Source of the DNA: a virus
Length of the DNA stretch: 47,284 nt
Virus record (IMG/VR): IMGVR_UViG_3300045988_065468
Coordinates: 1 to 47,284 of that record
Reading direction: 5' to 3' (one strand)
Each line of letters starts with the position of its first letter. Positions within the stretch are counted from its first letter, which is position 1. The notes under the pieces were generated by a model. It was not told the DNA's origin. It made no database searches and was given only the letters and a program-made list of their open reading frames with translations. A program made the translations under genes and the position numbers. This document shows, one piece after another, positions 3,945 to 24,728 of this stretch.

Positions 3945-5099
3945 TTGGTGTGTAAAGTGAATTTTAAAGAGCAATGGAAGGATATAGAAGGGTATGAGGG
4001 ATTATATGAAATAAGTACATACGGAAATGTAAGGAGTAAAGAAAGAAAAAGTAACAGTGGAAAAATTATAAAAGAAAAGATTTTAAAACAGGAAGTAACA
4101 AAAAATAATAGATGCCTTGTTAAATTGTCAAAAGATGGAAAAACTAAAAAATACCAAGTTCATGTTTTAGTGGCTAAACATTTTATAGACAATCCATATT
4201 TTTACAATGAAGTAAACCATATAGATGAAAACCCATTAAATAATAACGTAAGCAATTTGGAATGGTGTACATGTTGGTATAATAATTGTTGCTCATTTAG
4301 TAAACACGTTTTAAGTGAAAACACATTGGACAAAAATGAAAGAAAGTTCTATGAAAGTGTAAATGCGACAACTTATGATGGATTTAATAAAGGTCATGTT
4401 GGTGCAGTTTGCAGAGGGGAAGAATCACAACATAAAGGGTATGTTTTTAAATATGTAAAAGATGAAAAATACATTATAGGAATTGATGAAAGTTATGCAA
4501 GGTGCGGTATAACATTATTATGTGATAAAGTGATAGTTGAAATGTTTTCCATTAATTATGAAAATTGTTTAAATAACACAGAAAAGAGAAAGGAAATTAA
4601 AAAGGAATTAAACAGAATATGTAAAGAATACAGACTTGATAAAAGAAATTGTGATTGTATAGTAGAAAGAATAAGGTTAAAATCACAAGGAGTATTAAGT
4701 TTAAATTATATACTTGCAACATCGGCATTAGTGTCAACAATAACAGATACATTATACAATTATAAAATAAAAGTATATTCAGTTAATACAAAGAGCTGGA
4801 AGTATGCTATTGTAGGTACAAGCAAACCTTTGGAAAACCCTTATGGAATTAATCCAGAGAAGTATCGTACAATCTTGTATATGCGTGATAAAGGGCTTTT
4901 AAAGCATATAGCTGAGGAATATAAGGGCAGAGGTAAAAAAGGCATTATAAACGTAAAAATGGACGTTATAGAAGGTAATCGAAAAGTAAGGAAGAAAGTG
5001 CCTTGCAAAATTAATGATGATTTAGCTGATAGCTATTGTATTGCAATGTATGGGTACTTACCAAAGTCAAAACAAAAGCTAAAGGAGGAAAAGTTTTGA
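3945..5099 (+). CDS. HNH homing-endonuclease (NUMOD4/HNH_3/IENR-like) fused in frame to a RuvC-like Holliday junction resolvase
   Basis: N-terminal half: WKDIEGYEGLYEISTYGNVRS, HVLVAKHF..VNHIDENPLNNNVSNLEW, YDGFNKGHVGAVCRG..HKGYVF. C-terminal half: IIGIDESYARCGI..CIVERI..INDDLADSYCIAMYG. No in-frame ATG/GTG/TTG lies at the junction. The exact 5' start is uncertain (TTG 3945 or GTG 3957). Confidence 0.65.
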   Translation: MVCKVNFKEQWKDIEGYEGLYEISTYGNVRSKERKSNSGKIIKEKILKQEVTKNNRCLVKLSKDGKTKKYQVHVLVAKHFIDNPYFYNEVNHIDENPLNNNVSNLEWCTCWYNNCCSFSKHVLSENTLDKNERKFYESVNATTYDGFNKGHVGAVCRGEESQHKGYVFKYVKDEKYIIGIDESYARCGITLLCDKVIVEMFSINYENCLNNTEKRKEIKKELNRICKEYRLDKRNCDCIVERIRLKSQGVLSLNYILATSALVSTITDTLYNYKIKVYSVNTKSWKYAIVGTSKPLENPYGINPEKYRTILYMRDKGLLKHIAEEYKGRGKKGIINVKMDVIEGNRKVRKKVPCKINDDLADSYCIAMYGYLPKSKQKLKEEKF

Positions 5100-5873
5100 A
5101 AAAAGTGAAATTAAGAAAAGGTGATTGTATTGAACTTATGAAAGATATTCCCGATGGAAGTATTGATATGATCCTTTGTGATTTACCATATGGAACAACT
5201 GCTTGTAAGTGGGACACTGTTATTTCTTTTGAACCATTATGGGAGCAGTACAACAGAATTATCAAAGACAATGGTGCAATAGTTTTATTTGCTAGTCAAC
5301 CATTCTCATCTGTTTTAGTAAATAGTAATATTAAGAATTTTAGATATGAATGGATATGGGAGAAAGATAAGCCTAGTAACTTTGCATTAGCAAATAAACA
5401 ACCTATGAAATACCATGAAAATGTAATGGTATTTTATAAAAAAACAACCGACTTATAATAAACAAATTACATATGGTCACAAGCCTATGAATGGACAAGC
5501 TAAATATGGAAGAACATATAATGGTTCAGTCCCAAGTTTAGAAGTAGAAGAAAGATATAAAGGTGGTAAAACAACTAGAAATCCTTCTAGTATACAAAAG
5601 TTTAATACACCAAAACACAATTCATCAGATAAAAGTGGTTTACATCCATGTCAGAAACCTTTGGAGGCATGTGAGTATTTTATTAAAACATATACAAATG
5701 AAGGGGAAATTGTTTTGGACAACTGTATGGGGTCTGGTAGCACGGGAGTTGCTTGTTTGAGGACTAATAGAAAATTTATAGGCATTGAATTGGAACAAAA
5801 ATATTATGATATTGCAAAAGAAAGAATAAAAAAAGAAATGGAAATTTTAAAGTTAAAGGAAGAAAAATTTTAG
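5096..5873 (+). pseudogene. Beta-class N4/N6 DNA methyltransferase split by a frame break in an A7 run (5438-5444)
   Basis: Upstream part has motif IV ILCDLPYGTT. Downstream part (track ORF 5487..5873) has HPCQKP and motif I DNCMGSGSTG. Removing one A gives the continuous reading VMVFYKKQPTYNKQITYGHKPMNG. A TTG start at 5096 follows aaggagga. Confidence 0.75.
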
Positions 5874-14892: not shown

Positions 14893-15222
14893 ATGGAAAC
14901 TAATACAGAATTAAAACAAATACAAATAAATAAATGTATAAGAGAACAAGCAGAACAGTTTGGATTAGAAAACAGAATGTTACAATGCACAGAAGAAGCA
15001 GGAGAACTTATACAGGCATTAAGCAAGTATCGGAGAATCAAACAGGGAGATAAAACTTGCCGTACAAATATGTGTCATGCAGAATACATGGTAGCAGAAG
15101 AAATGGCAGATTTAGAAATCTGTATAGAACAATTAAAGTGTCTGTTAGGAAACACAGAGCAGATAGAACAAATAAAAGCAGAAAAGGTACATAGAACAGA
15201 ACAACGTCTATATGAAGAATAG
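14893..15222 (+). CDS. MazG-like nucleotide pyrophosphohydrolase
   Basis: 109 aa. CTEEAGELIQAL...VAEEMADLEICIEQL matches the EExxE...ExxD MazG helix pair. Confidence 0.65.
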   Translation: METNTELKQIQINKCIREQAEQFGLENRMLQCTEEAGELIQALSKYRRIKQGDKTCRTNMCHAEYMVAEEMADLEICIEQLKCLLGNTEQIEQIKAEKVHRTEQRLYEE

Positions 15223-15321: not shown

Positions 15322-15876
15322 ATGGGAAAAACAACAAATAAAAAGAATGTAGAACTCAATATTGTTTATAGAAATATCAAGGAACTAAAACCATATAAGA
15401 AGAATGCAAAGAAGCATCCAAAAGAACAGGTTGAACGAATAGCAAACAGCATTAAAGAGTTTGGGTTTACACAGCCAGTGATTATTGATACCAATAATTG
15501 TGTTGTTGCAGGACACGGAAGAATCCTTGGAGCAAAGAAAGCAGGATTAAAACAAGTGCCAACTGTTATGTTGGAAGATTTAACAGAAGAACAAATCAAG
15601 GCATATAGGTTGGTAGATAACAAATTGAATGAAAGCGAATGGGATTTTAGTTTGTTGGATGAAGAACTAGGAATACTATCAGACGATATTGATATGGAGT
15701 TGTTTGGTTTTGACGAAGATATGTCAGATGAAAAACTGGAAAAGAAAAAAATCGAATTTGAAATAAAAGAGAAATATGAAGTTCATATAATTTGTAAAGA
15801 TGAAAAACAAATGGAACAAGTTTATAATAAAACGAAAGGACTTGGAATGGAATGCAAGTTAGTTTCAACATTGTAA
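15322..15876 (+). CDS. ParB-like nuclease (ParBc/Srx) domain protein
   Basis: LKPYKKNAKKHPKEQVERIANSIKEFGFTQPVIID..VVAGHGRILGAKKAGLKQVP..YRLVDNKL is the canonical ParB N-terminal domain pattern. Confidence 0.8.
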   Translation: MGKTTNKKNVELNIVYRNIKELKPYKKNAKKHPKEQVERIANSIKEFGFTQPVIIDTNNCVVAGHGRILGAKKAGLKQVPTVMLEDLTEEQIKAYRLVDNKLNESEWDFSLLDEELGILSDDIDMELFGFDEDMSDEKLEKKKIEFEIKEKYEVHIICKDEKQMEQVYNKTKGLGMECKLVSTL

Positions 15877-16532
15877 AGAAAACAAAAATAAATGAAAGCT
15901 TTAGAACAAAAAAAATAAAATCTGATTTTGATTATAAACAAAACGAAACAGAAAATATATTTAGTGGAATAATTGAAACACCGAAGAAATGGAATATAGG
16001 TTGTATTGTAGGAGCAAGTGGTACAGGTAAAAGTACAATAGCTAAAGAAAAATTTGGAAAGTATTATGTTCGTGATTTTGTTTATGATGAAAACTCTGTT
16101 TTAGATAATATGAATGAAAATTGTACTGTAGAAGAAATAACAAAAATGTTTTATAGAGTTGGTTTTAGTTCAGTACCAGATTGGTTAAAACCTTATAATT
16201 TGTTAAGTACAGGACAAAAAATGAGAGTTGATGTTGCAAGGGCATTGCTACAAAATGATAAAGTTGTTTATGACGAATTTACTTCTGTTGTTGATAGAAC
16301 AGTTGCTAAAAACTTATGTATAGCACTTAATAAATATTTAAAACAATCAGATAAACAATTTATAGCAGTTAGCTGTCACAAGGACATAATTGAATATTTA
16401 CAACCAGATTGGATATTTGATACAGATACAATGCAAATGGTTTTTGTAAAAGCCCCAGACCAAAACAAAAATTCACAATTAGAAAATGCGAAAGAACGGA
16501 ATGGGGCAAATTTAGGAACTATCATTATTTGA
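15852..16532 (+). CDS. ABC-type (SMC/ABC-like) ATPase
   Basis: Walker A is VGASGTGKST, ABC signature-like is LSTGQKMRVDVARAL, Walker B is VVYDEFTSVVD. The last ~30 codons overlap the extended GNAT frame. Confidence 0.7.
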   Translation: MQVSFNIVKKTKINESFRTKKIKSDFDYKQNETENIFSGIIETPKKWNIGCIVGASGTGKSTIAKEKFGKYYVRDFVYDENSVLDNMNENCTVEEITKMFYRVGFSSVPDWLKPYNLLSTGQKMRVDVARALLQNDKVVYDEFTSVVDRTVAKNLCIALNKYLKQSDKQFIAVSCHKDIIEYLQPDWIFDTDTMQMVFVKAPDQNKNSQLENAKERNGANLGTIII

Positions 16533-16924
16533 ACACAGAATTATCTAGTTCAGCACAATGTTTTGGTTGTTATAATGAACAAAATGAAATTGTTGGTTTT
16601 TGTGCTGTGTTGCATCAACCACATAACAAAATACTTAATCTAAAAAGAGTGCATAGATTAGTTATATTGCCAGATTATCAAGGCATAGGGTTGGGAACAA
16701 TGTTTTTAAACATTATTGCTGAATACATAACTAAACAAGGAAATGAGTTTTGTATTGTTACGAGTGCTAAAAACATGATAGGTGCATTATATAAAAGTGA
16801 CAAGTGGTTTTGTACAGGATATCACAAAACCAATCCTAACGAAGGTAATATTCAAGATAATGAAACTTGCAGAACTGATAATTTGTGTGGTAGATTTATG
16901 TACAAAACAAAAACATATATGTAA
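16529..16924 (+). CDS. GNAT-family acetyltransferase (N-terminus probably extends upstream to about 16442 via a frame change)
   Basis: Motif A is RLVILPDYQGIGLGTMFLN. The same frame is open from 16421 and reads RPKQKFTIRKCERTEWGKFRNYHYLNTE. The annotated start is only a TTG. Confidence 0.7.
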   Translation: MNTELSSSAQCFGCYNEQNEIVGFCAVLHQPHNKILNLKRVHRLVILPDYQGIGLGTMFLNIIAEYITKQGNEFCIVTSAKNMIGALYKSDKWFCTGYHKTNPNEGNIQDNETCRTDNLCGRFMYKTKTYM

Positions 16925-18862: not shown

Positions 18863-19915
18863 ATGGATGTAAACATTGAGGTGTCTAACAGATTTGCTTC
18901 TTTTCTAACCGATTGGGACTATGAACAATATCTGTTGTTGGGTGGATATGGTAGTGGTAAAAGCTATCATGCAGCATTGAAGATTATATTAAAACTTCTG
19001 GAAGAAAAAAGAACAGCACTTGTAGTAAGACAAGTAAGAGAAACAATCAAAGAATCATGTTTCGCACTGTTTAAAGAAATCCTTGAAAAGATGGGGTTGT
19101 TATCAGACGAAGCAGTGAGATTTAACAATAGACCGAAGGGTGGAAAGGTTGTTGCAATTTCTAGCCCACTAGAAATCCGTTTTCCGAATGGTTCAAGAAT
19201 CATATTCCGAGGAATGGATAATACGGAGAAAATCAAGTCCATTCATGGTGTCAGCATTGTTTGGATGGAAGAGTGTAGCGAAATCCGTTATGAAGCATAT
19301 ACCGAGTTGCTAGGGCGTATCAGAGAGCCTAAAGTGACGTTGCATTTTATAATGACAACAAACCCAGTTGGTAAGGAAAACTGGGTATACAATACCTTTT
19401 TTGTGCATACGGATGAAAAGGGGAAAGAAAAAGTAATACAGAACCCAGAGGAATTTTACAGACGTAGAACATTGGTGAACAAAAAGAATGGCGTATATTA
19501 TCATCATAGTTTACCAAATGATAACCCATTTTTGCCAGCGTCATACATTAAGCGTTTGGATAGTTTGAAACAAACAGACAAACAGTTGTGGGTTGTTGCA
19601 AGATGGGGAAGGTTTGGTGCAAATGGAACAAGAGTATTACCAAACTTTATTATTGCAAAGCACAGTAAGGAGTTCAAGAACAAAGTGAACAGCATATCAG
19701 CACAATATCATTTCTTTGGACTTGACTTTGGTTTTGAAGAGAGTTACAATGCACTTATCAGTTGTTGTGTGGATGATGCAAACAAAGTGCTGTACATTTA
19801 TGATGAAGTGTACATGAATCAGATAACAGATGATAGATTCTCACAGAGACAAGATGTTCGTGCAGTAGCAGAACGTGCAGGAAGGTGTGAAAAACCAATC
19901 TGTGCAGACAGTGCT
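18863..19915 (+). CDS. terL: Terminase large subunit, exon 1
   Basis: Walker A is LLLGGYGSGKSYHAA, Walker B-like is VSIVWMEECSE, nuclease motif is FGLDFGFEESYNALI. Homology-like sequence ends at ...PICADSA. The track ORF then runs into unrelated residues (KLLVLNHVKYWEALRALNTVA*). Confidence 0.85.
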
Positions 19916-20754
19916 AAACTTTTGGTACTTAACCATGTTAAATACTGGGAAGCCCTTAGAGCCTTAAATACCGTAGCGTGATAATTTTAAGGATTGGGTA
20001 ATCAGTAGTAGTTTAAAGTAAACGGAGGATTTTGATGTGAAAGTGAAACAAATAAATAAAATAAAAGGGTTTGAACATATAAACGATGGATATTATGTTT
20101 CTTATGATGGAAGAGTATTTTCTCTCAGAACAAACGGAGGAAAGGTTGTAGATGTATCTCATAGAAAAGAGTTAAAGCAGTATGAGAAAACAGGTGGTTA
20201 TTTGAATGTTGCTCTTACAACAAAACATAACAAAGTAAATTATGTTAGAGTAAACAGATTAGTCGCAAAGGCTTTTGTAAAAGGAGAAACATCAAAAAGA
20301 AAATATGTTAATCATGAAGACGAAAATAGAAAAAATAATAATGCAGATAATTTGTGTTGGGTAACTCCAAAGGAAAATAATGATTGGAGTTTATCAAAGA
20401 AAGTTTATATGTATGATAGCAACGGGTATTTTATAAAAAGTTATATCTCTACAAGAGAAGCATCTTATGATGGGTTTAATAAATCACATGTTGCAAATGT
20501 ATGTAGAGGAATTGAAAGACAACATAAAGGATATTTGTTCTCATATCAAAAACTAACGAAAGAACAAGCTATTCAACGACTATCGAAAACACATTATGTT
20601 AGATATCCAAAATGTAATGGAAGTGAGTAGAGTACACACAAGCGTGTGGAAAAGCATGGAGCAGAAATGCTAAGATATAGTCTAAACTTATATGAAAGTA
20701 TAAGCAGTTCATAAGAGAACGTGTATAGAGTAGCGATCTATGCAGAATCTATTG
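19916..20754 (+). mobile_element. Group I self-splicing intron (839 nt) carrying an HNH homing endonuclease ORF
   Basis: The exon ends in U. P1 pairs agtgcU (19910-15) with Ggtact (19924-29), placing a U-G wobble at the splice site. The last intron nt is G (20754). gctaagatatagtct (20678-20692) contains the AAGAUAUAGUC J8/7-P7 core string. Joining the exons restores ADSA-EPKTIQ in frame. Confidence 0.8.
20037..20630 (+). CDS. Intron-encoded HNH homing endonuclease (HNH_3 plus IENR/NUMOD-like)
   Basis: GTG follows ggagg. YYVSYDGRVFS, RVNRLVAKAF..VNHEDENRKNNNADNLCW, YDGFNKSHVANVCRG..HKGYLFSY. Same architecture as the N-terminal half of ORF 3945..5099. Confidence 0.8.
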   Translation: MKVKQINKIKGFEHINDGYYVSYDGRVFSLRTNGGKVVDVSHRKELKQYEKTGGYLNVALTTKHNKVNYVRVNRLVAKAFVKGETSKRKYVNHEDENRKNNNADNLCWVTPKENNDWSLSKKVYMYDSNGYFIKSYISTREASYDGFNKSHVANVCRGIERQHKGYLFSYQKLTKEQAIQRLSKTHYVRYPKCNGSE

Positions 20755-21060
20755 GAACCTAAAACAATTCAGTTTTACAGACAGCAAGGATACAACATGT
20801 ATGGTGCGAAAAAGTACATTGGAAGTCGATTACAAAACACAAAGAAGATGAAACGATTTAACAAGATAGTTTGTTCCCCTAGATGTAAGAACACAATCAG
20901 AGAGTTGAAAGACCTTACATATAAGAAGGATTTGAGAGGCAATGCAATTTATGATGAATTTAACATTGACCCACATACATTCTCTGCGTTATGGTATGCG
21001 TTGGACACATACACAGTAGCAGATGTGAAGGAAATTAAAACAAACAGTAAAGCAGGATAA
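20755..21060 (+). CDS. terL: Terminase large subunit, exon 2
   Basis: [55 protein letters not shown] matches the TerL C-terminal nuclease region pattern (aDsaEP..I..l...G..v..akK ... c.n...E...Y ... DalRYal). Confidence 0.85.
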
Positions 21061-21900: not shown

Positions 21901-22020
21901 ATGAATCCAAACGAAACAAATAGTATTGCAGGTATTGTACTAGAAGAATGCGAAACAATGAATGAAGAAACAATGAAAGAATTAAGCAATGGAAAGGGAG
22001 AGGGTGAAGATAATGAGTAA
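21901..22020 (+). CDS. Small acidic ORF (39 aa) between holin and endolysin
   Basis: Not in the track. ATG follows aaaggagaac. Reads MNPNETNSIAGIVLEECETMNEETMKELSNGKGEGEDNE and overlaps the endolysin start. Confidence 0.35.
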   Translation: MNPNETNSIAGIVLEECETMNEETMKELSNGKGEGEDNE

Positions 22021-22939
22021 TAGTAAATTAGTAAATCATATTCATATTTCACCGAACAGAACAAGTCCAAGGCGAAACAGAATTGATAGAATCACAATAC
22101 ATCACATGGCAGGAAACCTTACCGTTGAGACTTGTGGTAATGTATTCGCACCTAGAGGACGACAAGCATCATCCAATTATGGTATTGGTTCGGATGGAAG
22201 AGTAGGAATGTATGTGGAAGAAAAAGATAGAGCGTGGACTTCATCGTCTGGTGCGAACGACCACAGAGCAGTTACAATTGAAGTCGCAGACAATGTAATT
22301 GGAAATGGTTGGGGGTGTAGTAATGCCGCAATGAGCAAGTTAATTCTTTTATGTGCTGACATCTGTAGAAGAAATGGTATTAATCGCCTTACATACACAG
22401 GAAACACAAATGGAAATCTTACTTTGCACAAATGGTTTGCGGCTACAGATTGTCCGGGTGCATTCCTCGAAAGGCTGATGCCAACAATTGCAAATGAAGT
22501 TAATCATTTGTTAGTAAGTGGTGCAACAACATATACATGGAAAGGCGCAACAGCAACAATTCCAAGCGGCAGACCAACAAAGCCACAGCCTTCAAAAACA
22601 AATGCAATTGCAGTAGATGGTAGTTGGGGAATTGCAACAACAAGGAAAGCACAACAAGTATTTGGAACAATCCAAGATGGAGTTATCAGTAATCAGCCAA
22701 TATACAATAAGCAGTTTTTACCGAATGCTTACACAGGTAGTTGGCAATTCAAACAGAATGGCATTAAAGCAGGTTCACAGTTGATTAAAGCAATTCAAGT
22801 GCGTATTGGTGTAAGTCACGATGGTTGGTTTGGTAAACAGTCCGTAATGGCGTTACAGCGTTTCTTAGGGGTATCACAAGATGGTAGCATGGGTGGTATC
22901 ACTGTTAGGGCGTTTCAGCGTTGGTTGAACAAACAATAA
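22013..22939 (+). CDS. Endolysin: N-acetylmuramoyl-L-alanine amidase (Amidase_2/PGRP) with C-terminal PG_binding_1-like repeats
   Basis: ITIHHMAG, SSNYGIGSDGRVGMYVEEKDRAWTS, NDHRAVTIEV. The C-terminus has three repeats: VDGSWGIATTRKAQQVFG, HDGWFGKQSVMALQRFLG, QDGSMGGITVRAFQRWL. Confidence 0.85.
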   Translation: MSNSKLVNHIHISPNRTSPRRNRIDRITIHHMAGNLTVETCGNVFAPRGRQASSNYGIGSDGRVGMYVEEKDRAWTSSSGANDHRAVTIEVADNVIGNGWGCSNAAMSKLILLCADICRRNGINRLTYTGNTNGNLTLHKWFAATDCPGAFLERLMPTIANEVNHLLVSGATTYTWKGATATIPSGRPTKPQPSKTNAIAVDGSWGIATTRKAQQVFGTIQDGVISNQPIYNKQFLPNAYTGSWQFKQNGIKAGSQLIKAIQVRIGVSHDGWFGKQSVMALQRFLGVSQDGSMGGITVRAFQRWLNKQ

Positions 22940-23141: not shown

Positions 23142-24728
23142 TTGGCAGTAAAGAAACAGTACAATGTTGAGGTAACAAGAGCGTTGGCTAGTTTTCCCTA
23201 TTTTGTTTTAAAGAAAGAAATAACAACAGGGTACAATCTGTATACAAGAGAGTTGCTAGAAATAAAACAAAACTATCTGGATTATAAAAAGGGAGCAGAG
23301 TTTTATACAGAAGGAAGTAGCGGAGATTATCAGCCGTCAAACATTCGTTTTAAGATTGCTAAAACATTGATTGACAAAGAAGCACGTTTCATGTTTTCAC
23401 AGACACCAGATGTTACAATCCAGTCTGTTGATACAAATAAAGAACAGATGAAACAAGTTGAGCAGTACCAGATGCTGATTGATAAAGTATTGAAGAATAA
23501 AAAGAACAATTTTTCAAGAACATTATTACAGAGTGCGAAGGATTGCTTTATAGGAAAACGTGTTGCATGTTTGGTGGATTTTTCCGAAGAAGATGGAATA
23601 CAGACACATTTCTATAACAGTTTACAGTTTTATTATGAAACAGAGTACGGCTCTGACAGGTTGACGAAGTTTATCAGTTTTGAAAATGTTAATCAAACAA
23701 AGTCAACACAAGAAAGACTGTACCTTGTGAATCGGTATGAAGAAAAAGACGGAACAATTTATATGAGTTCTATTCTTTACAATGGAACTGGAAAGGAACA
23801 GGAGATTGTAATACCAGAACAGGAAATAGAGTTAGATTATATTCCTGCTGTTGTGATTATCAATGATGGAACATTAGAGGACAAAAGAGGTGTTTCAGAA
23901 ATTGAGAGCCTTACAGAGTATGAATCTGGTTACAGCAGACTAGGGAATGGAGATATTGACAGTGAGCGTAAGGGAATGAACCCAATCCGTTATACTGTGG
24001 ATATGAACTCGCAGACAACAAAGAACCTTAGTTCTGGTGCTGGTGCTTATTGGGATTTGAAATCAGAACAAAACCAGAACAATGTTTCGCCACAGGTGGG
24101 AACACTAGCACCGAGTATGAATCATACAGAACCAGTGAAGGTTACGCTTGACCGATTGAAAACAACCATGTACAATGAAATTGATATGCCAAACATATCA
24201 GAAGAAACAATGACAGGAACAATCACAAGCGGAAAGGCATTGAAAGCACTATATTATCCGTTACAGGTTCGATGTGATGAAAAACTAAAGGCATGGAAAC
24301 CTGCGATAGAGTTTATTGCAGAAGCAATCATTGACCTTGCTGTGTTAAACAAAGCAGAAGTGATTTCCATGTATGTTCTTACAAGTCTGGATGAAGTACA
24401 GTACAACATTGAAGTGATGGAGAATTATGCACTTGCAGAAGATGAAGAAGAAGAGAAGAACTCAGACCTTGCAGAGATTGCGGCAAATGCACGAAGCAGG
24501 AAGTCTTACATTAAGAAGTGGAGACGGTCAGAGTTCAAAACAGATGCACAGATTGATGAAGAGTTGATGCAGATAGCAATTGAAAACAATATGTTTGATT
24601 CTATGAGTATGAACACACAGATACAGACAGAATTGAGCAGACGTGGAGTATCTGAAAAGGTTGACGATAATCTGGAAGTGATTGACACACAGAAAACATT
24701 GGAAGAAACACAAGCAATTGAAGAATAG
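23142..24728 (+). CDS. Portal protein (SPP1 gp6-like, by size and position)
   Basis: 528 aa. TTG start follows aaaggaggaaagg. It lies directly upstream of the MuF/gp7-like gene and has an acidic C-terminus. Confidence 0.65.
   Translation: MAVKKQYNVEVTRALASFPYFVLKKEITTGYNLYTRELLEIKQNYLDYKKGAEFYTEGSSGDYQPSNIRFKIAKTLIDKEARFMFSQTPDVTIQSVDTNKEQMKQVEQYQMLIDKVLKNKKNNFSRTLLQSAKDCFIGKRVACLVDFSEEDGIQTHFYNSLQFYYETEYGSDRLTKFISFENVNQTKSTQERLYLVNRYEEKDGTIYMSSILYNGTGKEQEIVIPEQEIELDYIPAVVIINDGTLEDKRGVSEIESLTEYESGYSRLGNGDIDSERKGMNPIRYTVDMNSQTTKNLSSGAGAYWDLKSEQNQNNVSPQVGTLAPSMNHTEPVKVTLDRLKTTMYNEIDMPNISEETMTGTITSGKALKALYYPLQVRCDEKLKAWKPAIEFIAEAIIDLAVLNKAEVISMYVLTSLDEVQYNIEVMENYALAEDEEEEKNSDLAEIAANARSRKSYIKKWRRSEFKTDAQIDEELMQIAIENNMFDSMSMNTQIQTELSRRGVSEKVDDNLEVIDTQKTLEETQAIEE

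What the first reader, a model, noticed from the sequence alone, without database searches (positions are those of the whole stretch)
15322..16924. ParB-like nuclease domain plus ABC-type ATPase plus GNAT acetyltransferase: candidate nucleic-acid modification or anti-defence module, with ATPase and GNAT joined by a -1 frame change
Three overlapping genes form a tight unit:
- A stand-alone ParBc domain, a domain that phages usually fuse to DNA methylases.
- An ATPase with Walker A, an LSTGQ signature and Walker B.
- A GNAT with motif A QGIGLG.

The GNAT reading frame is open 108 nt upstream of its nominal TTG start. There it encodes protein-like sequence (RPKQKFTIRKCERTEWGKFRNYHYL) that overlaps the ATPase tail, which reads less convincingly (NAKERNGANLGTIII*). 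One extra T in the T5 run at 16441-45, or a -1 slip of tRNA-Phe on that run, fuses the two as ...DTMQMVFCKSPRPKQKF..., giving an ATPase-GNAT polypeptide of about 325 aa.

GNAT-fold enzymes can modify DNA bases (Mu Mom) or tRNAs (TmcA, which is ATPase-coupled). ParB-like domains recur in DNA-modification clusters. I do not know a characterised system with this trio, so it is a reasonable candidate for an undescribed modification or counter-defence function.
Basis: partly seen in the sequence, partly recalled or inferred. Interest (0 to 1): 0.65.

Follow-up and report, generated by a model that had tools for sequence, protein, structure and literature searches.

The report
Frameshift-joined phage ATPase–acetyltransferase with ParB partner
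A widespread but uncharacterised phage gene pair (a ParB-like protein plus an ATPase fused to an acetyltransferase) is here expressed through a conserved, apparently unreported programmed -1 ribosomal frameshift, and its genomic company suggests that it modifies DNA.

Summary
ParB_N (15322-15876), an ABC-type ATPase (15852-16532) and a GNAT frame (open from 16421, ending 16924) form one overlapping unit.

The ATPase and GNAT are two halves of a single gene family (PHROG 11143, function unknown). Most homologs are single ORFs of about 355 aa. The virtual fusion in the window is 357 aa, not about 325.

The -1 break is not an error. All 42 distinct relatives found by DNA pattern share it at the same codon.
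- The codon is always slippery: U_UUU, U_UUU_UUU or C_CCC.
- A G+C-rich hairpin starts 5-7 nt downstream. It covaries and is absent from 145 fused homologs.
- The GNAT frame has no start codon upstream of residues that are invariant in fused homologs.
- More distant lineages break at the same junction on A_AAA_AAG or T9 runs.

This is a programmed -1 frameshift. It should yield a 226-aa ATPase and a 357-aa ATPase-GNAT.

Function is inferred, not shown.
- ParB sits directly upstream in 175 of 198 loci and is fused to the enzyme in some homologs.
- Terminase usually follows.
- A sister phage carries ParB plus a DNA-base glycosyltransferase-like gene at the same locus.

The most likely role is ParB-partnered, ATP-gated acyl transfer onto DNA or a DNA-bound target.

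The parts
15322..15876 (+). Stand-alone ParB/Srx N-terminal-domain protein of 184 aa. It has a GHGR motif and a small C-terminal beta-alpha-beta tail, and it is the predicted partner or targeting subunit.
   Evidence: - Pfam ParB_N scores 36.9 bits, above its cut-off.
- phrog_620 matches at E = 2e-52 and phrog_498 (DNA methyltransferase, N-terminal part) at 7e-43.
- PADLOC MTase_II positions 14-152 match at E = 2e-26.
- A homolog lies directly upstream of the ATPase gene in 175 of 198 loci.
- It is fused to the enzyme in P0153 and P0149.
15852..15876 (+). A 25-nt overlap between the end of the ParB ORF and the start of the ATPase ORF, suggesting translational coupling.
   Evidence: -
- The same overlapping arrangement is typical of the family: the median ParB start is -515 relative to the ATPase start, and the median ParB length is 175 aa.
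- Coupling itself is inferred.
15852..16532 (+). The 0-frame ORF. It encodes an ABC-type nucleotide-binding domain (residues 1-198) plus a non-conserved 28-aa tail, ending at UGA 16530-32. This is the 226-aa product of ribosomes that do not shift.
   Evidence: - Pfam ABC_tran and phrog_11143 positions 2-194 both match.
- The AlphaFold2 model has pLDDT 86, and Foldseek matches ABC nucleotide-binding domains at E about 1e-8 to 1e-9.
- K60, S119, G121, D141, E142 and H176 are invariant across 97 sequences.
- Close relatives are all 226 aa.
16439..16446 (+). The shift site G_GUU_UUU_G. The slippery tetramer is U_UUU (16442-16445) and the slip codon is UUU, Phe198 (16443-45).
   Evidence: - The junction is mapped by the PHROG profile and by alignment to fused homologs.
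- In 42 distinct relatives the same codon is UUU or CCC preceded by the same base, in runs from T4 to T7 or C4.
- The motifs match the E. coli tetramer hierarchy A_AAG > U_UUY > C_CCY (PMC4066793).
16452..16507 (+). Predicted frameshift-stimulating hairpin.
- 5' arm: GCCCCA, 16452-57.
- 3' arm: UGGGGC, 16502-07.
- Inner pair: CC 16460-61 with GG 16498-99.
- Spacer: 6 nt, 16446-51.
   Evidence: - The window fold has z = -2.56.
- In the frameshifted group the mean z is -2.34 and P(paired) is 0.98. In 145 fused controls z is 0.02 and P(paired) is 0.37, with Mann-Whitney p = 1e-18.
- There are 11 distinct arm pairs, and the 5' arm starts 5-7 nt after the slip codon in 40 of 42 sequences. In the other two the helix extends to 1 nt from it.
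- The covariation score is 0.159 against 0.074 in shuffles (0 of 500 reach it), with compensatory GC/CG changes at two pairs.
16445..16924 (+). The -1 frame read after the shift. It encodes 159 aa: a linker and a complete GNAT domain (beta1 at fusion residues 209-212, motif A QGIGLG at 16679-16696), with its stop at 16922-24. Joined to residues 1-198 it gives the 357-aa ATPase-GNAT.
   Evidence: - Pfam GNAT families match above their cut-offs, as do phrog_11143 positions 196-331.
- The GNAT-only model has pLDDT 85.8, with Foldseek TM 0.6-0.68 to GNAT structures.
- F221, H225, Y226 and L227 are invariant and W218 is nearly invariant (at least 90%) across 97 sequences. All five are encoded upstream of any start codon in this frame.
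- In the overlap, variation peaks at third positions of the GNAT frame.
16529..16531 (+). The nominal TTG start of the GNAT ORF. It is probably not used as a start; it is the Leu codon of the invariant HYL motif.
   Evidence: - In relatives this codon is TTA, TTG, CTA or CTG, so it is not a conserved start.
- Starting here would remove beta1 and alpha1 of the GNAT fold.

Best explanation
**The unit.** The locus encodes a two-gene phage module.
- Gene 1 is a short ParB/Srx-fold protein.
- Gene 2 is a single ATPase-acetyltransferase gene whose two halves lie in different frames.

**How gene 2 is expressed.**
- Ribosomes translating the ABC-type ATPase domain reach the Phe codon UUU at 16443-45, which is preceded by a U (the slippery tetramer U_UUU).
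- A G+C-rich hairpin begins 6 nt downstream (16452-57 paired with 16502-07).
- A fraction of ribosomes slips back one base and continues in the -1 frame. This makes a 357-aa ATPase-GNAT enzyme (...MQMVF-CKSPRPK...).
- The remaining ribosomes stop at UGA 16530 and release a 226-aa ATPase-only protein.

**Shown by comparative evidence.**
- The two halves are one gene.
- The break is conserved.
- The break site is always slippery.
- The downstream structure is specific to frameshifted members and covaries.

**Inferred.**
- The shift is ribosomal.
- Both products are made.
- As in other ABC ATPases, two nucleotide-binding domains close around ATP. ATPase-only and ATPase-GNAT chains could therefore build a dimer with two ATPase domains and one GNAT, which is the architecture seen in long single-chain homologs.

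**Function (inferred, about 0.35-0.4).** Together with its ParB partner, the enzyme carries out ATP-gated acetyl or acyl transfer onto phage DNA, or onto a DNA-bound target, late in infection just before packaging. That would be a DNA-modification (anti-restriction) cassette. It would be analogous to ParB-methyltransferase fusions and to ParB-dependent thymine dioxygenases.
For: **One gene**
- phrog_11143 spans both frames.
- 156 of 168 loci, and 78 of the 111 classifiable 50%-identity representatives, are single fused ORFs.
- The virtual fusion aligns colinearly with fused homologs, with R203 and P204 nearly invariant immediately after the junction.

**Conserved break**
- Every pattern-matched relative with enough flanking sequence shows the -1 architecture and a 0-frame ORF of 225-226 aa.
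- Twenty-five clusters at 69-97% identity, 24 of them 226 aa long and one truncated at 205 aa, include two with 120 and 172 member sequences.
- Streptococcus prophages 315.4 and phiNIH1.1 and phage MismyG share the break.

**Slippery site**
- The motif is U_UUU, U_UUU_UUU or C_CCC, always at the same codon.
- More distant lineages use A_AAA_AAG (Enterococcus phage 9184, L251) or T9 runs, one of them in a contig with 66% G+C.
- The motif hierarchy and the 5-8 nt spacing match PMC4066793.

**Hairpin**
- The hairpin is absent from the nearest fused relative, P0009.

**No independent start, and purifying selection in the -1 frame**

**Folds**

**ParB partnership**
- ParB is directly upstream in 175 of 198 loci.
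- P0153 is a ParB-ATPase-GNAT single chain, and P0149 is a ParB-ATPase chain.

**Link to DNA modification**
- This ParB is most similar to the ParB domains of ParB-methyltransferases.
- Clostridium phage CS266P2 has, at the same locus, a ParB 63% identical over residues 12-140, followed by a TAGT / glucosyl-HMC-glucosyltransferase-like gene in place of the ATPase-GNAT.
- In L252 a ParB-N6_N4 methyltransferase gene lies next to the pair.
- Phage ParB proteins activate DNA thymine dioxygenases (PMC13229309).

**Two ATPase domains per GNAT**
- P0154 and P0216 each carry two P-loop ATPase regions and one GNAT domain. P0184 also has repeated ATPase matches but no GNAT hit.
Against: - No protein, ribosome-profiling or reporter data exist for either product, so frameshift efficiency is unknown.
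- G_GUU_UUU is not a canonical heptamer. The P-site tRNA-Val would re-pair poorly, so only the tetramer is slippery and the yield may be low.
- Parts of the hairpin are constrained by Pro and Trp codons, and its register shifts between subclades. This weakens column-wise covariation statistics, and only 45.6% of cells in the inner helix pair in a fixed register.
- The 42 sequences are phylogenetically related, so the p-values are inflated.
- In lineages with T7-T9 runs, transcriptional slippage could do the same job.
- In Thomasclavelia phage TR-TP1 a TTG preceded by GAGGA could start the GNAT independently. Separate polypeptides may therefore work.
- On function, the structural neighbours of the GNAT are generic (SpeG, RimI, PaiA) and do not point to nucleic acid.
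- Genes of different function often share this position in phage genomes.
- No modified base is known for any phage that carries this module.
Confidence: 0.78

Rival explanations
1. The break is a sequencing or assembly error in the T5 homopolymer, or a recent inactivating mutation (a pseudogene). On this view the real gene is a plain fusion or is dead.
For: - The break lies in a homopolymer.
- Most homologs are fused.
Against: - The same -1 break at the same codon occurs in 42 distinct sequences from independent assemblies and GenBank genomes, down to about 55% amino-acid identity. Both halves stay intact and under purifying selection.
- The site sequence varies (T4, T5, T7, C4) but is always slippery.
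- A lineage-specific hairpin accompanies the break.
Confidence: 0.02
2. There are two independent proteins. The ATPase terminates at 16532, and the GNAT is initiated separately at TTG 16529 or by termination-reinitiation. The upstream open frame is then untranslated.
For: - TTG 16529 overlaps the UGA stop, as TTTGA.
- GenBank annotations list two genes.
- TR-TP1 may have its own TTG start with a GAGGA upstream.
Against: - The codon at 16529 is TTA, CTA or CTG in most relatives, so it is not a start.
- F221, H225, Y226 and L227 (invariant) and W218, R203 and P204 (nearly invariant) are encoded upstream of it, with no ATG, GTG or TTG in that frame.
- Substitutions in the overlap follow the codon phase of the GNAT frame.
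- Beta1 and alpha1 of the GNAT fold would be lost.
- Annotated starts in Streptococcus phages leave only 87-89 aa.
Confidence: 0.08
3. The recoding is transcriptional. RNA polymerase slips on the T run and adds one U to a fraction of the mRNAs, which are then translated normally into the fusion.
For: - Some lineages carry T7 or T9 runs, or long A runs, which are long enough for polymerase slippage.
- Those lineages lack a significant downstream structure.
Against: - The window has only T5, and relatives work with T4 or C4. These runs are shorter than known slippage-prone runs, a point that rests on established knowledge reviewed in PMC5009743.
- A hairpin 5-7 nt downstream is the hallmark of ribosomal, not transcriptional, frameshifting (PMC4066793).
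- A_AAA_AAG in Enterococcus phage 9184 and L251 is the classic ribosomal heptamer.
Confidence: 0.1
4. The functional rival. The module is not a DNA modifier. The ATPase-GNAT acetylates a protein (for example a host nucleoid or defence protein, or a packaging protein), an aminoacyl-tRNA or tRNA, or a small molecule, and ParB serves only as a regulator or scaffold.
For: - The structural neighbours of the GNAT are polyamine, ribosomal-protein and small-molecule acetyltransferases.
- The gene lies next to the terminase small- and large-subunit genes in more than 100 loci.
- An ASCH-domain gene follows in the Streptococcus subclade. ASCH is an RNA- or modified-base-binding fold, and from my own recollection some members hydrolyse N4-acetylcytidine.
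Against: - The ParB is of the type found in DNA methyltransferases.
- A DNA glycosyltransferase-like gene replaces the enzyme at the same locus in CS266P2.
- The module is adjacent to a ParB-methyltransferase, and to DNA polymerase genes in Enterococcus phage 9184 and TR-TP1.
- No membrane partner is present, so the 'ABC transporter' annotation is not supported.
Confidence: 0.45

Closest known systems
E. coli dnaX (tau/gamma) and IS3-family orfAB programmed -1 frameshifts
   Same: - A slippery motif is combined with a downstream stem-loop 5-8 nt away.
- One gene yields two products that share an N-terminal part.
- Some lineages of this family use the same heptamer, A_AAA_AAG.
   Different: - In dnaX the shift truncates the protein, whereas here it adds a whole catalytic domain, as in IS3 OrfAB.
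- The window clade uses only a tetramer (U_UUU or C_CCC).
- No upstream Shine-Dalgarno-like stimulator was seen.
- Nothing has been tested experimentally.
Phage tail assembly chaperone G/GT -1 frameshift
   Same: It is a conserved phage recoding event in which the position is kept while the sequence diverges, and it sets a fixed ratio of a short and a long product.
   Different: - This is a different gene class: enzymatic, located upstream of the terminase genes, and not structural.
- Most members of this family are plain fusions, so the frameshift is specific to certain clades.
ParB-methyltransferase fusions and ParB-dependent phage thymine dioxygenases (5mYOX; PMC13229309)
   Same: - A short ParB-fold protein or domain without the canonical HTH is paired with a DNA-base-modifying enzyme in phages.
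- The window ParB is most similar to the ParB domains of these methyltransferases.
- The partner enzyme is swapped for a glycosyltransferase-like gene in a sister phage.
   Different: - The partner here is an ABC-ATPase-GNAT with no characterised member.
- Dependence on ParB, and the substrate, are untested.
TmcA / NAT10 (ATP-dependent RNA cytidine N4-acetyltransferase)
   Same: An ATPase domain is fused N-terminally to a GNAT domain, and acetyl transfer is coupled to ATP.
   Different: - The ATPase here is of the ABC type, not a RecD-like helicase.
- No DUF1726 or tRNA-binding domains were hit.
- The protein is 357 aa rather than about 670.
- There is an obligate ParB neighbour.
Dnd DNA phosphorothioation system (DndB ParB-family protein plus DndD ABC ATPase)
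   Same: It combines a ParB-superfamily protein and an ABC ATPase in a DNA-modification machine (PMC10853773).
   Different: - The ATPase here has no coiled-coil insert.
- There are no DndA, DndC or DndE homologs.
- The chemistry would be acyl transfer.
- The system is encoded by phages rather than by the host.

Membership tests
Bacterial-type programmed -1 ribosomal frameshift signal | A slippery Z_ZZN tetramer or X_XXZ_ZZN heptamer in the 0 frame at the point where the frames join. | tested here: met
   - U_UUU lies at 16442-45.
- All 42 relatives have U_UUU, U_UUU_UUU or C_CCC at the same codon.
- Other lineages have A_AAA_AAG or T9 runs.
Bacterial-type programmed -1 ribosomal frameshift signal | A stimulatory RNA structure that starts 5-8 nt downstream of the motif. 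| tested here: met
   - The predicted stem starts 5-7 nt downstream in 40 of 42 sequences; in the other two the helix extends to 1 nt from the slip codon.
- z is -2.34 in the frameshifted group against 0.02 in fused controls.
- Covariation exceeds all shuffles and all slid controls.
- This is a prediction only.
Bacterial-type programmed -1 ribosomal frameshift signal | The -1 ORF lacks its own start and encodes conserved sequence contiguous with the 0-frame product. | tested here: met
   - No ATG, GTG or TTG occurs between 16421 and 16528.
- R203, P204 and W218 (nearly invariant) and F221, H225, Y226 and L227 (invariant) are encoded there.
- Variation follows the codon phase of the GNAT frame.
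Bacterial-type programmed -1 ribosomal frameshift signal | The trans-frame protein is detected experimentally. | not testable with these tools
   No proteomic or reporter data are available, and no paper on it was found.
ABC ATPase (nucleotide-binding domain) | Walker A, the LSGGQ-type signature, Walker B with a catalytic Glu, the H-loop, and the NBD fold. | tested here: met
   - GASGTGKS, LSTGQ, VVYDE and CH are present and invariant.
- Foldseek matches ABC nucleotide-binding domains at E about 1e-8 to 1e-9.
ABC transporter (the current GenBank annotation) | Association with transmembrane permease domains or genes. | tested here: not met
   - Neighbours in 198 loci are ParB, terminase small-subunit-like genes and terminase large subunit, with no permease cluster.
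- All NCBIfam transporter models score far below their cut-offs.
GNAT acyltransferase | Motif A, Q/RxxGxG/A, and the GNAT fold. | tested here: met
   - QGIGLG is invariant.
- Pfam matches are above their cut-offs.
- TM scores to GNAT structures are 0.6-0.68.
- Catalytic activity and substrate are not testable.
Canonical chromosome- or plasmid-partition ParB | A ParB_N domain together with an HTH DNA-binding domain, a C-terminal dimerisation domain, and a ParA/parS partner. | tested here: not met
   - Only ParB_N was hit in a protein of 184 aa.
- TIGR00180 scores 39.4 against a cut-off of 58.45.
- No ParA gene is among the conserved neighbours.
TmcA/NAT10 RNA acetyltransferase | A RecD-like helicase ATPase with DUF1726 and tRNA-binding domains flanking the GNAT. 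| tested here: not met
   The ATPase is of the ABC type, and no such Pfam or NCBIfam hits were found.
ParB-partnered phage DNA-modification cassette (ParB-MTase, ParB plus 5mYOX) | A ParB-fold partner genetically coupled to the enzyme, with the enzyme acting on DNA bases. | tested here: inconclusive
   - Coupling is met: adjacency in 175 of 198 loci, fusions, and a cassette swap with a TAGT-like gene.
- Action on DNA could not be tested.

The most novel reading that the evidence does not exclude
The ParB / ABC-ATPase / GNAT machine writes a so far undescribed acyl mark on phage DNA, for example an N4-acyl-cytosine or an N6-acyl-adenine. It would do so in an ATP-gated, ParB-targeted manner just before packaging. 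In a large Firmicutes-phage clade, a programmed -1 frameshift would set a stoichiometry of two ATPase domains to one GNAT for the enzyme. This would make it both a new DNA hypermodification pathway and a new class of recoded phage gene.
Probability: 0.2. Interest if true: 0.88.

Novelty: new variant of a known kind. Interest (0 to 1): 0.68.

Why it matters
- **Annotation.** The family is very large: 6,588 proteins at E <= 1e-5, in phages and prophages of many bacterial phyla and of archaea. It is currently annotated as 'ABC transporter' plus 'hypothetical protein'. Treating it as one recoded gene corrects the annotation of well-known genomes, including S. pyogenes prophages 315.4 and phiNIH1.1, Lactococcus phage P335 and Oenococcus phages.
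- **Recoding biology.** It adds a conserved non-structural example to the short list of phage programmed frameshifts. The family contains natural variants of the signal: a tetramer plus hairpin, a heptamer, and long runs.
- **A testable function.** The strict pairing with ParB, the ParB-enzyme fusions and the swap with a DNA glycosyltransferase-like gene make a concrete hypothesis: a ParB-guided, ATP-dependent acyltransferase acting on DNA. This can be tested with a few knock-outs and nucleoside mass spectrometry.

Tried and rejected
- **Sequencing error or pseudogene.** Rejected because of conservation.
- **Independent TTG start.** Rejected as the main route.
- **ABC transporter annotation.** Rejected. 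There is no permease, and every transporter model scores far below its cut-off.
- **TmcA-like architecture.** Not met.
- **Known defence or anti-defence family.** PADLOC gave only a weak ABC hit (mad3) and the ParB-methyltransferase match.
- **Rfam.** No family was found at the site.
- **Sequence search of solved structures with the family profile.** It returned only generic ABC nucleotide-binding domains.
- **Foldseek on the whole protein and on the GNAT alone.** Both gave only generic matches that say nothing about the substrate.
- **The search for related loci with an alignment of frameshifted members.** It returned mostly fused homologs, because split matches score lower.
- **RNAalifold on all frameshifted sequences.** It found only 3 consensus pairs, because the helix register shifts between subclades. 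Per-sequence folds and a fixed-register pair count were used instead.
- **ASCH as a core partner.** Rejected. It occurs almost only in the Streptococcus subclade.
- **Literature.** No description of this frameshift or of the ABC-GNAT enzyme was found. The ABC-ATPase classification paper by Krishnan et al. 2020, which might mention the family, is not held.
Full report
**1. The observation**

- ParB-like, 15322-15876.
- ATPase, 15852-16532, overlapping the ParB ORF by 25 nt.
- GNAT, with a nominal TTG at 16529 and a stop at 16924.

Further points check out as follows.
- The GNAT frame is open from 16421 and reads GFCKSPRPKQKFTIRKCERTEWGKFRNYHYL before the TTG.
- The T5 run is at 16441-45, and the 0-frame codons are GTT(16440-42) TTT(16443-45) GTA.
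- Pfam confirms ParB_N, ABC_tran and three GNAT families, all above their gathering scores.
- The fusion made by a -1 slip on the Phe codon is 357 aa (198 + 159), not about 325 aa.

**2. ATPase and GNAT are one gene**

- A single PHROG (phrog_11143, 357 positions, function unknown) matches the ATPase ORF on positions 2-194. It matches the upstream-extended GNAT frame on positions 196-331. The junction therefore falls exactly on the T run.
- A search with the virtual fusion found 6,588 proteins at E <= 1e-5.
  - The closest hits (69-97% identity) are all ATPase-only: 24 are 226 aa and one is truncated at 205 aa.
  - More distant hits (44-52% identity) are single chains of 349-366 aa carrying both domains.
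- The fusion aligns colinearly with these single chains. R203 and P204 follow the junction closely, and W218, F221, H225, Y226 and L227 are encoded in the stretch that has no start codon. F221, H225, Y226 and L227 are invariant across 97 sequences; R203, P204 and W218 are nearly invariant.
- Of the first 168 loci fetched from viral and genome collections, 156 have both halves in one frame and 11 show a -1 break.
- An AlphaFold2 model of the fusion is confident (pLDDT 86, pTM 0.77). It shows an ABC nucleotide-binding domain followed directly by a complete GNAT, whose first strand and helix are residues 209-220. That is upstream of the nominal TTG.

**3. The break is conserved and the site is always slippery**

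- Streptococcus phage MismyG and prophages 315.4 and phiNIH1.1 are about 55% identical in protein and 67% in DNA. They have the same -1 break at the same codon (CAG GTT TTT CAA/CGA) and the same 0-frame ending ...III*.
- A DNA pattern taken from the conserved W..F..YHYL codons retrieved 33 viral and 24 metagenomic stretches.
  - Every one with enough flanking sequence has the -1 architecture.
  - They give 42 distinct sequences.
- The 0-frame codon at the junction is always UUU or CCC preceded by the same base. The observed forms are GGTTTTT, ACTTTTT, (A/G)TCTTTT, T7 (U_UUU_UUU) and GGTCCCC.
- These are the second- and third-ranked -1 tetramers in E. coli (A_AAG > U_UUY > C_CCY; PMC4066793).
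- In the overlap, variation is highest at third positions of the GNAT frame (entropy 0.93 against 0.69 and 0.66). Mean pairwise amino-acid identity is 0.60 in the GNAT frame against 0.46 in the 0 frame.
- The codon at the nominal start is TTA, TTG, CTA or CTG, so it is the Leu of HYL and not a conserved start.

**4. A hairpin specific to the frameshifted clade**

- In all 42 sequences the minimum-energy fold has a G+C-rich helix of at least 6 bp.
  - Its 5' arm begins 5-7 nt after the slip codon in 40 of them.
  - In the other two the helix extends to 1 nt from the slip codon.
- There are 11 different arm pairs, for example GCCCCA/UGGGGC, CCCCAC/GUGGGG, GCCCAC/GUGGGC, GCCCAAG/CUUGGGC and GCCGCG/CGCGGC. 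The 3' partner can move when the usual one is lost.
- Against dinucleotide shuffles the mean z is -2.34 and the 5' arm is paired with probability 0.98. The equivalent region of 145 fused homologs gives z = 0.02 and 0.37 (Mann-Whitney p = 1e-18). The sequences are related, so this p-value is inflated.
- A fixed-register pair count gives a covariation score of 0.159 against 0.074 in shuffles (0 of 500 reach it) and at most 0.062 in slid controls. Swaps occur at two pairs, GC:16/CG:12 and CG:17/GC:12.
- The inner helix also changes by compensatory pairs: GCAA/UUGC, GAGA/UCUC, GCGA/UCGC, CCAA/UUGG, CUAA/UUAG, CCGC/GCGG and CUCC/GGAG.
- In the window:
  - the stem is 16452-57 with 16502-07;
  - the spacer is 6 nt;
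  - z = -2.56.
- The nearest fused relative, P0009, has no such structure.
- Rfam has no family here.

**5. The same junction is recoded in other lineages**

- Enterococcus phage 9184 is about 30% identical and has GCA_AAA_AAG at the junction, with the -1 frame open.
- Three representatives of other 50%-identity clusters were traced to DNA.
  - One has A_AAA_AAG.
  - Two have T9 runs, one of them in a contig with 66% G+C.
- These lineages lack a significant downstream structure. That fits stronger slippery motifs, or polymerase slippage.
- Among the best 150 representatives, 78 are fused and 33 end in ..[IT][IT]I. That ending is the 0-frame reading of YHYL, the signature of the frameshifted form.
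- Thomasclavelia phage TR-TP1 is ambiguous: it has either a G_GGG slip or its own TTG start.

**6. Context and function**

*Position in the window*
- The module follows a MazG-like pyrophosphohydrolase (14893-15222) and precedes the terminase (from 18863) and the portal gene. The order is the same in Streptococcus phages.

*Neighbours across 198 distinct loci*
- A ParB-like gene lies directly upstream in 175.
- A terminase large subunit lies downstream in 103, usually after a small terminase-like gene.

*Fusions and domain counts*
- P0153 is a single ParB-ATPase-GNAT chain.
- P0149 is a ParB-ATPase chain with the frameshift-type tail.
- P0154 and P0216 carry two ATPase regions and one GNAT.

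*Links to DNA modification*
- The window ParB is most similar to the ParB domains of phage ParB-methyltransferases.
- In Clostridium phage CS266P2 the flanks are about 77% identical in DNA. At the same locus it carries a ParB 63% identical over residues 12-140, followed by a TET-associated / glucosyl-HMC glucosyltransferase-like gene instead of the ATPase-GNAT.
- In L252 a ParB-N6_N4 methyltransferase gene lies next to the pair.
- Phage ParB-like proteins have been shown to activate DNA thymine dioxygenases (PMC13229309).
- Dnd systems combine a ParB-family protein with an ABC ATPase (PMC10853773).

*Limits of the inference*
- These points favour a DNA-directed modification role, but they do not show it.
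- The structural neighbours of the GNAT are generic.
- No curated family, defence model or transporter model fits.

**7. Verdict**

- The best explanation is a programmed -1 ribosomal frameshift, made of the U_UUU tetramer and a hairpin. It yields an ATPase-only chain and an ATPase-GNAT chain from one gene of a ParB-coupled module.
- The biochemical target is unknown. DNA modification is the leading hypothesis, at about 0.35-0.4.
- I found no paper describing this recoding event or this enzyme. The held library is incomplete, so this is absence of evidence only.

Noticed in passing
window 18863-21060: The terminase large-subunit gene appears to be split. The N-terminal part is at 18863-19981, an HNH (I-HmuI-like) endonuclease ORF is at 20037-20630, and a short ORF matching the C-terminal end of the terminase large subunit is at 20740-21060. 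This suggests an intron or a homing-endonuclease insertion. The same layout is annotated in Clostridium phages CS266P2 and CS266P3.
   Followed up: partly
window 21989-22939: An endolysin- or amidase-like ORF (phrog_7698, E = 7e-52) lies between the terminase region and the portal gene (23142-24728). This is an unusual position for a lysis gene.
   Followed up: no
window 3945-5099: A second HNH endonuclease ORF of 384 aa. Its C-terminal half matches a RuvC-like Holliday-junction resolvase family (phrog_159).
   Followed up: no
L001 5584-5952; L002 5035-5412: An ASCH-domain gene directly follows the GNAT in Streptococcus phages. It is absent from the window and from most of the family: 15 loci in all, nearly all of them Streptococcus-type. 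It could be a reader or eraser of the presumed mark in that subclade.
   Followed up: partly
L248 (Enterococcus phage 9184) 468-3984; L247 (Thomasclavelia phage TR-TP1) 2447-5525: In these phages the ATPase/GNAT pair has no ParB upstream and sits among DNA polymerase genes. The GNAT ORF of Enterococcus phage 9184 carries a C-terminal extension that matches the end of a DNA polymerase family (phrog_1252 positions 607-662 of 663). This looks as if the pair had been inserted into a polymerase gene.
   Followed up: no
L252 821-3567: A ParB_N-N6_N4 methyltransferase fusion gene lies immediately upstream of the stand-alone ParB and the frameshifted ATPase-GNAT. Two ParB-associated enzymes therefore sit side by side before the terminase.
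   Followed up: no
P0154 (798 aa), P0184 (1063 aa), P0216 (1295 aa): These are long homologs with repeated ATPase regions. P0154 and P0216 also carry a single GNAT, while no GNAT hit was found in P0184. phrog_293 ('ABC transporter', 1058 positions) probably represents this form.
   Followed up: partly
L246 about 5590-5640 (P0009 gene): The nearest fused relative has A11 and A8 runs exactly where the frameshifted clade has its slip site and hairpin. The Lys-rich linker (consensus QKKNRP) may be an indel-prone spot that repeatedly seeds frame breaks.
   Followed up: no
window 14893-15222: A MazG-like NTP pyrophosphohydrolase lies just upstream of ParB. A MazG-like gene is also found a few genes upstream in Streptococcus phage MismyG and directly upstream in the Clostridium CS266 phages.
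   Followed up: no
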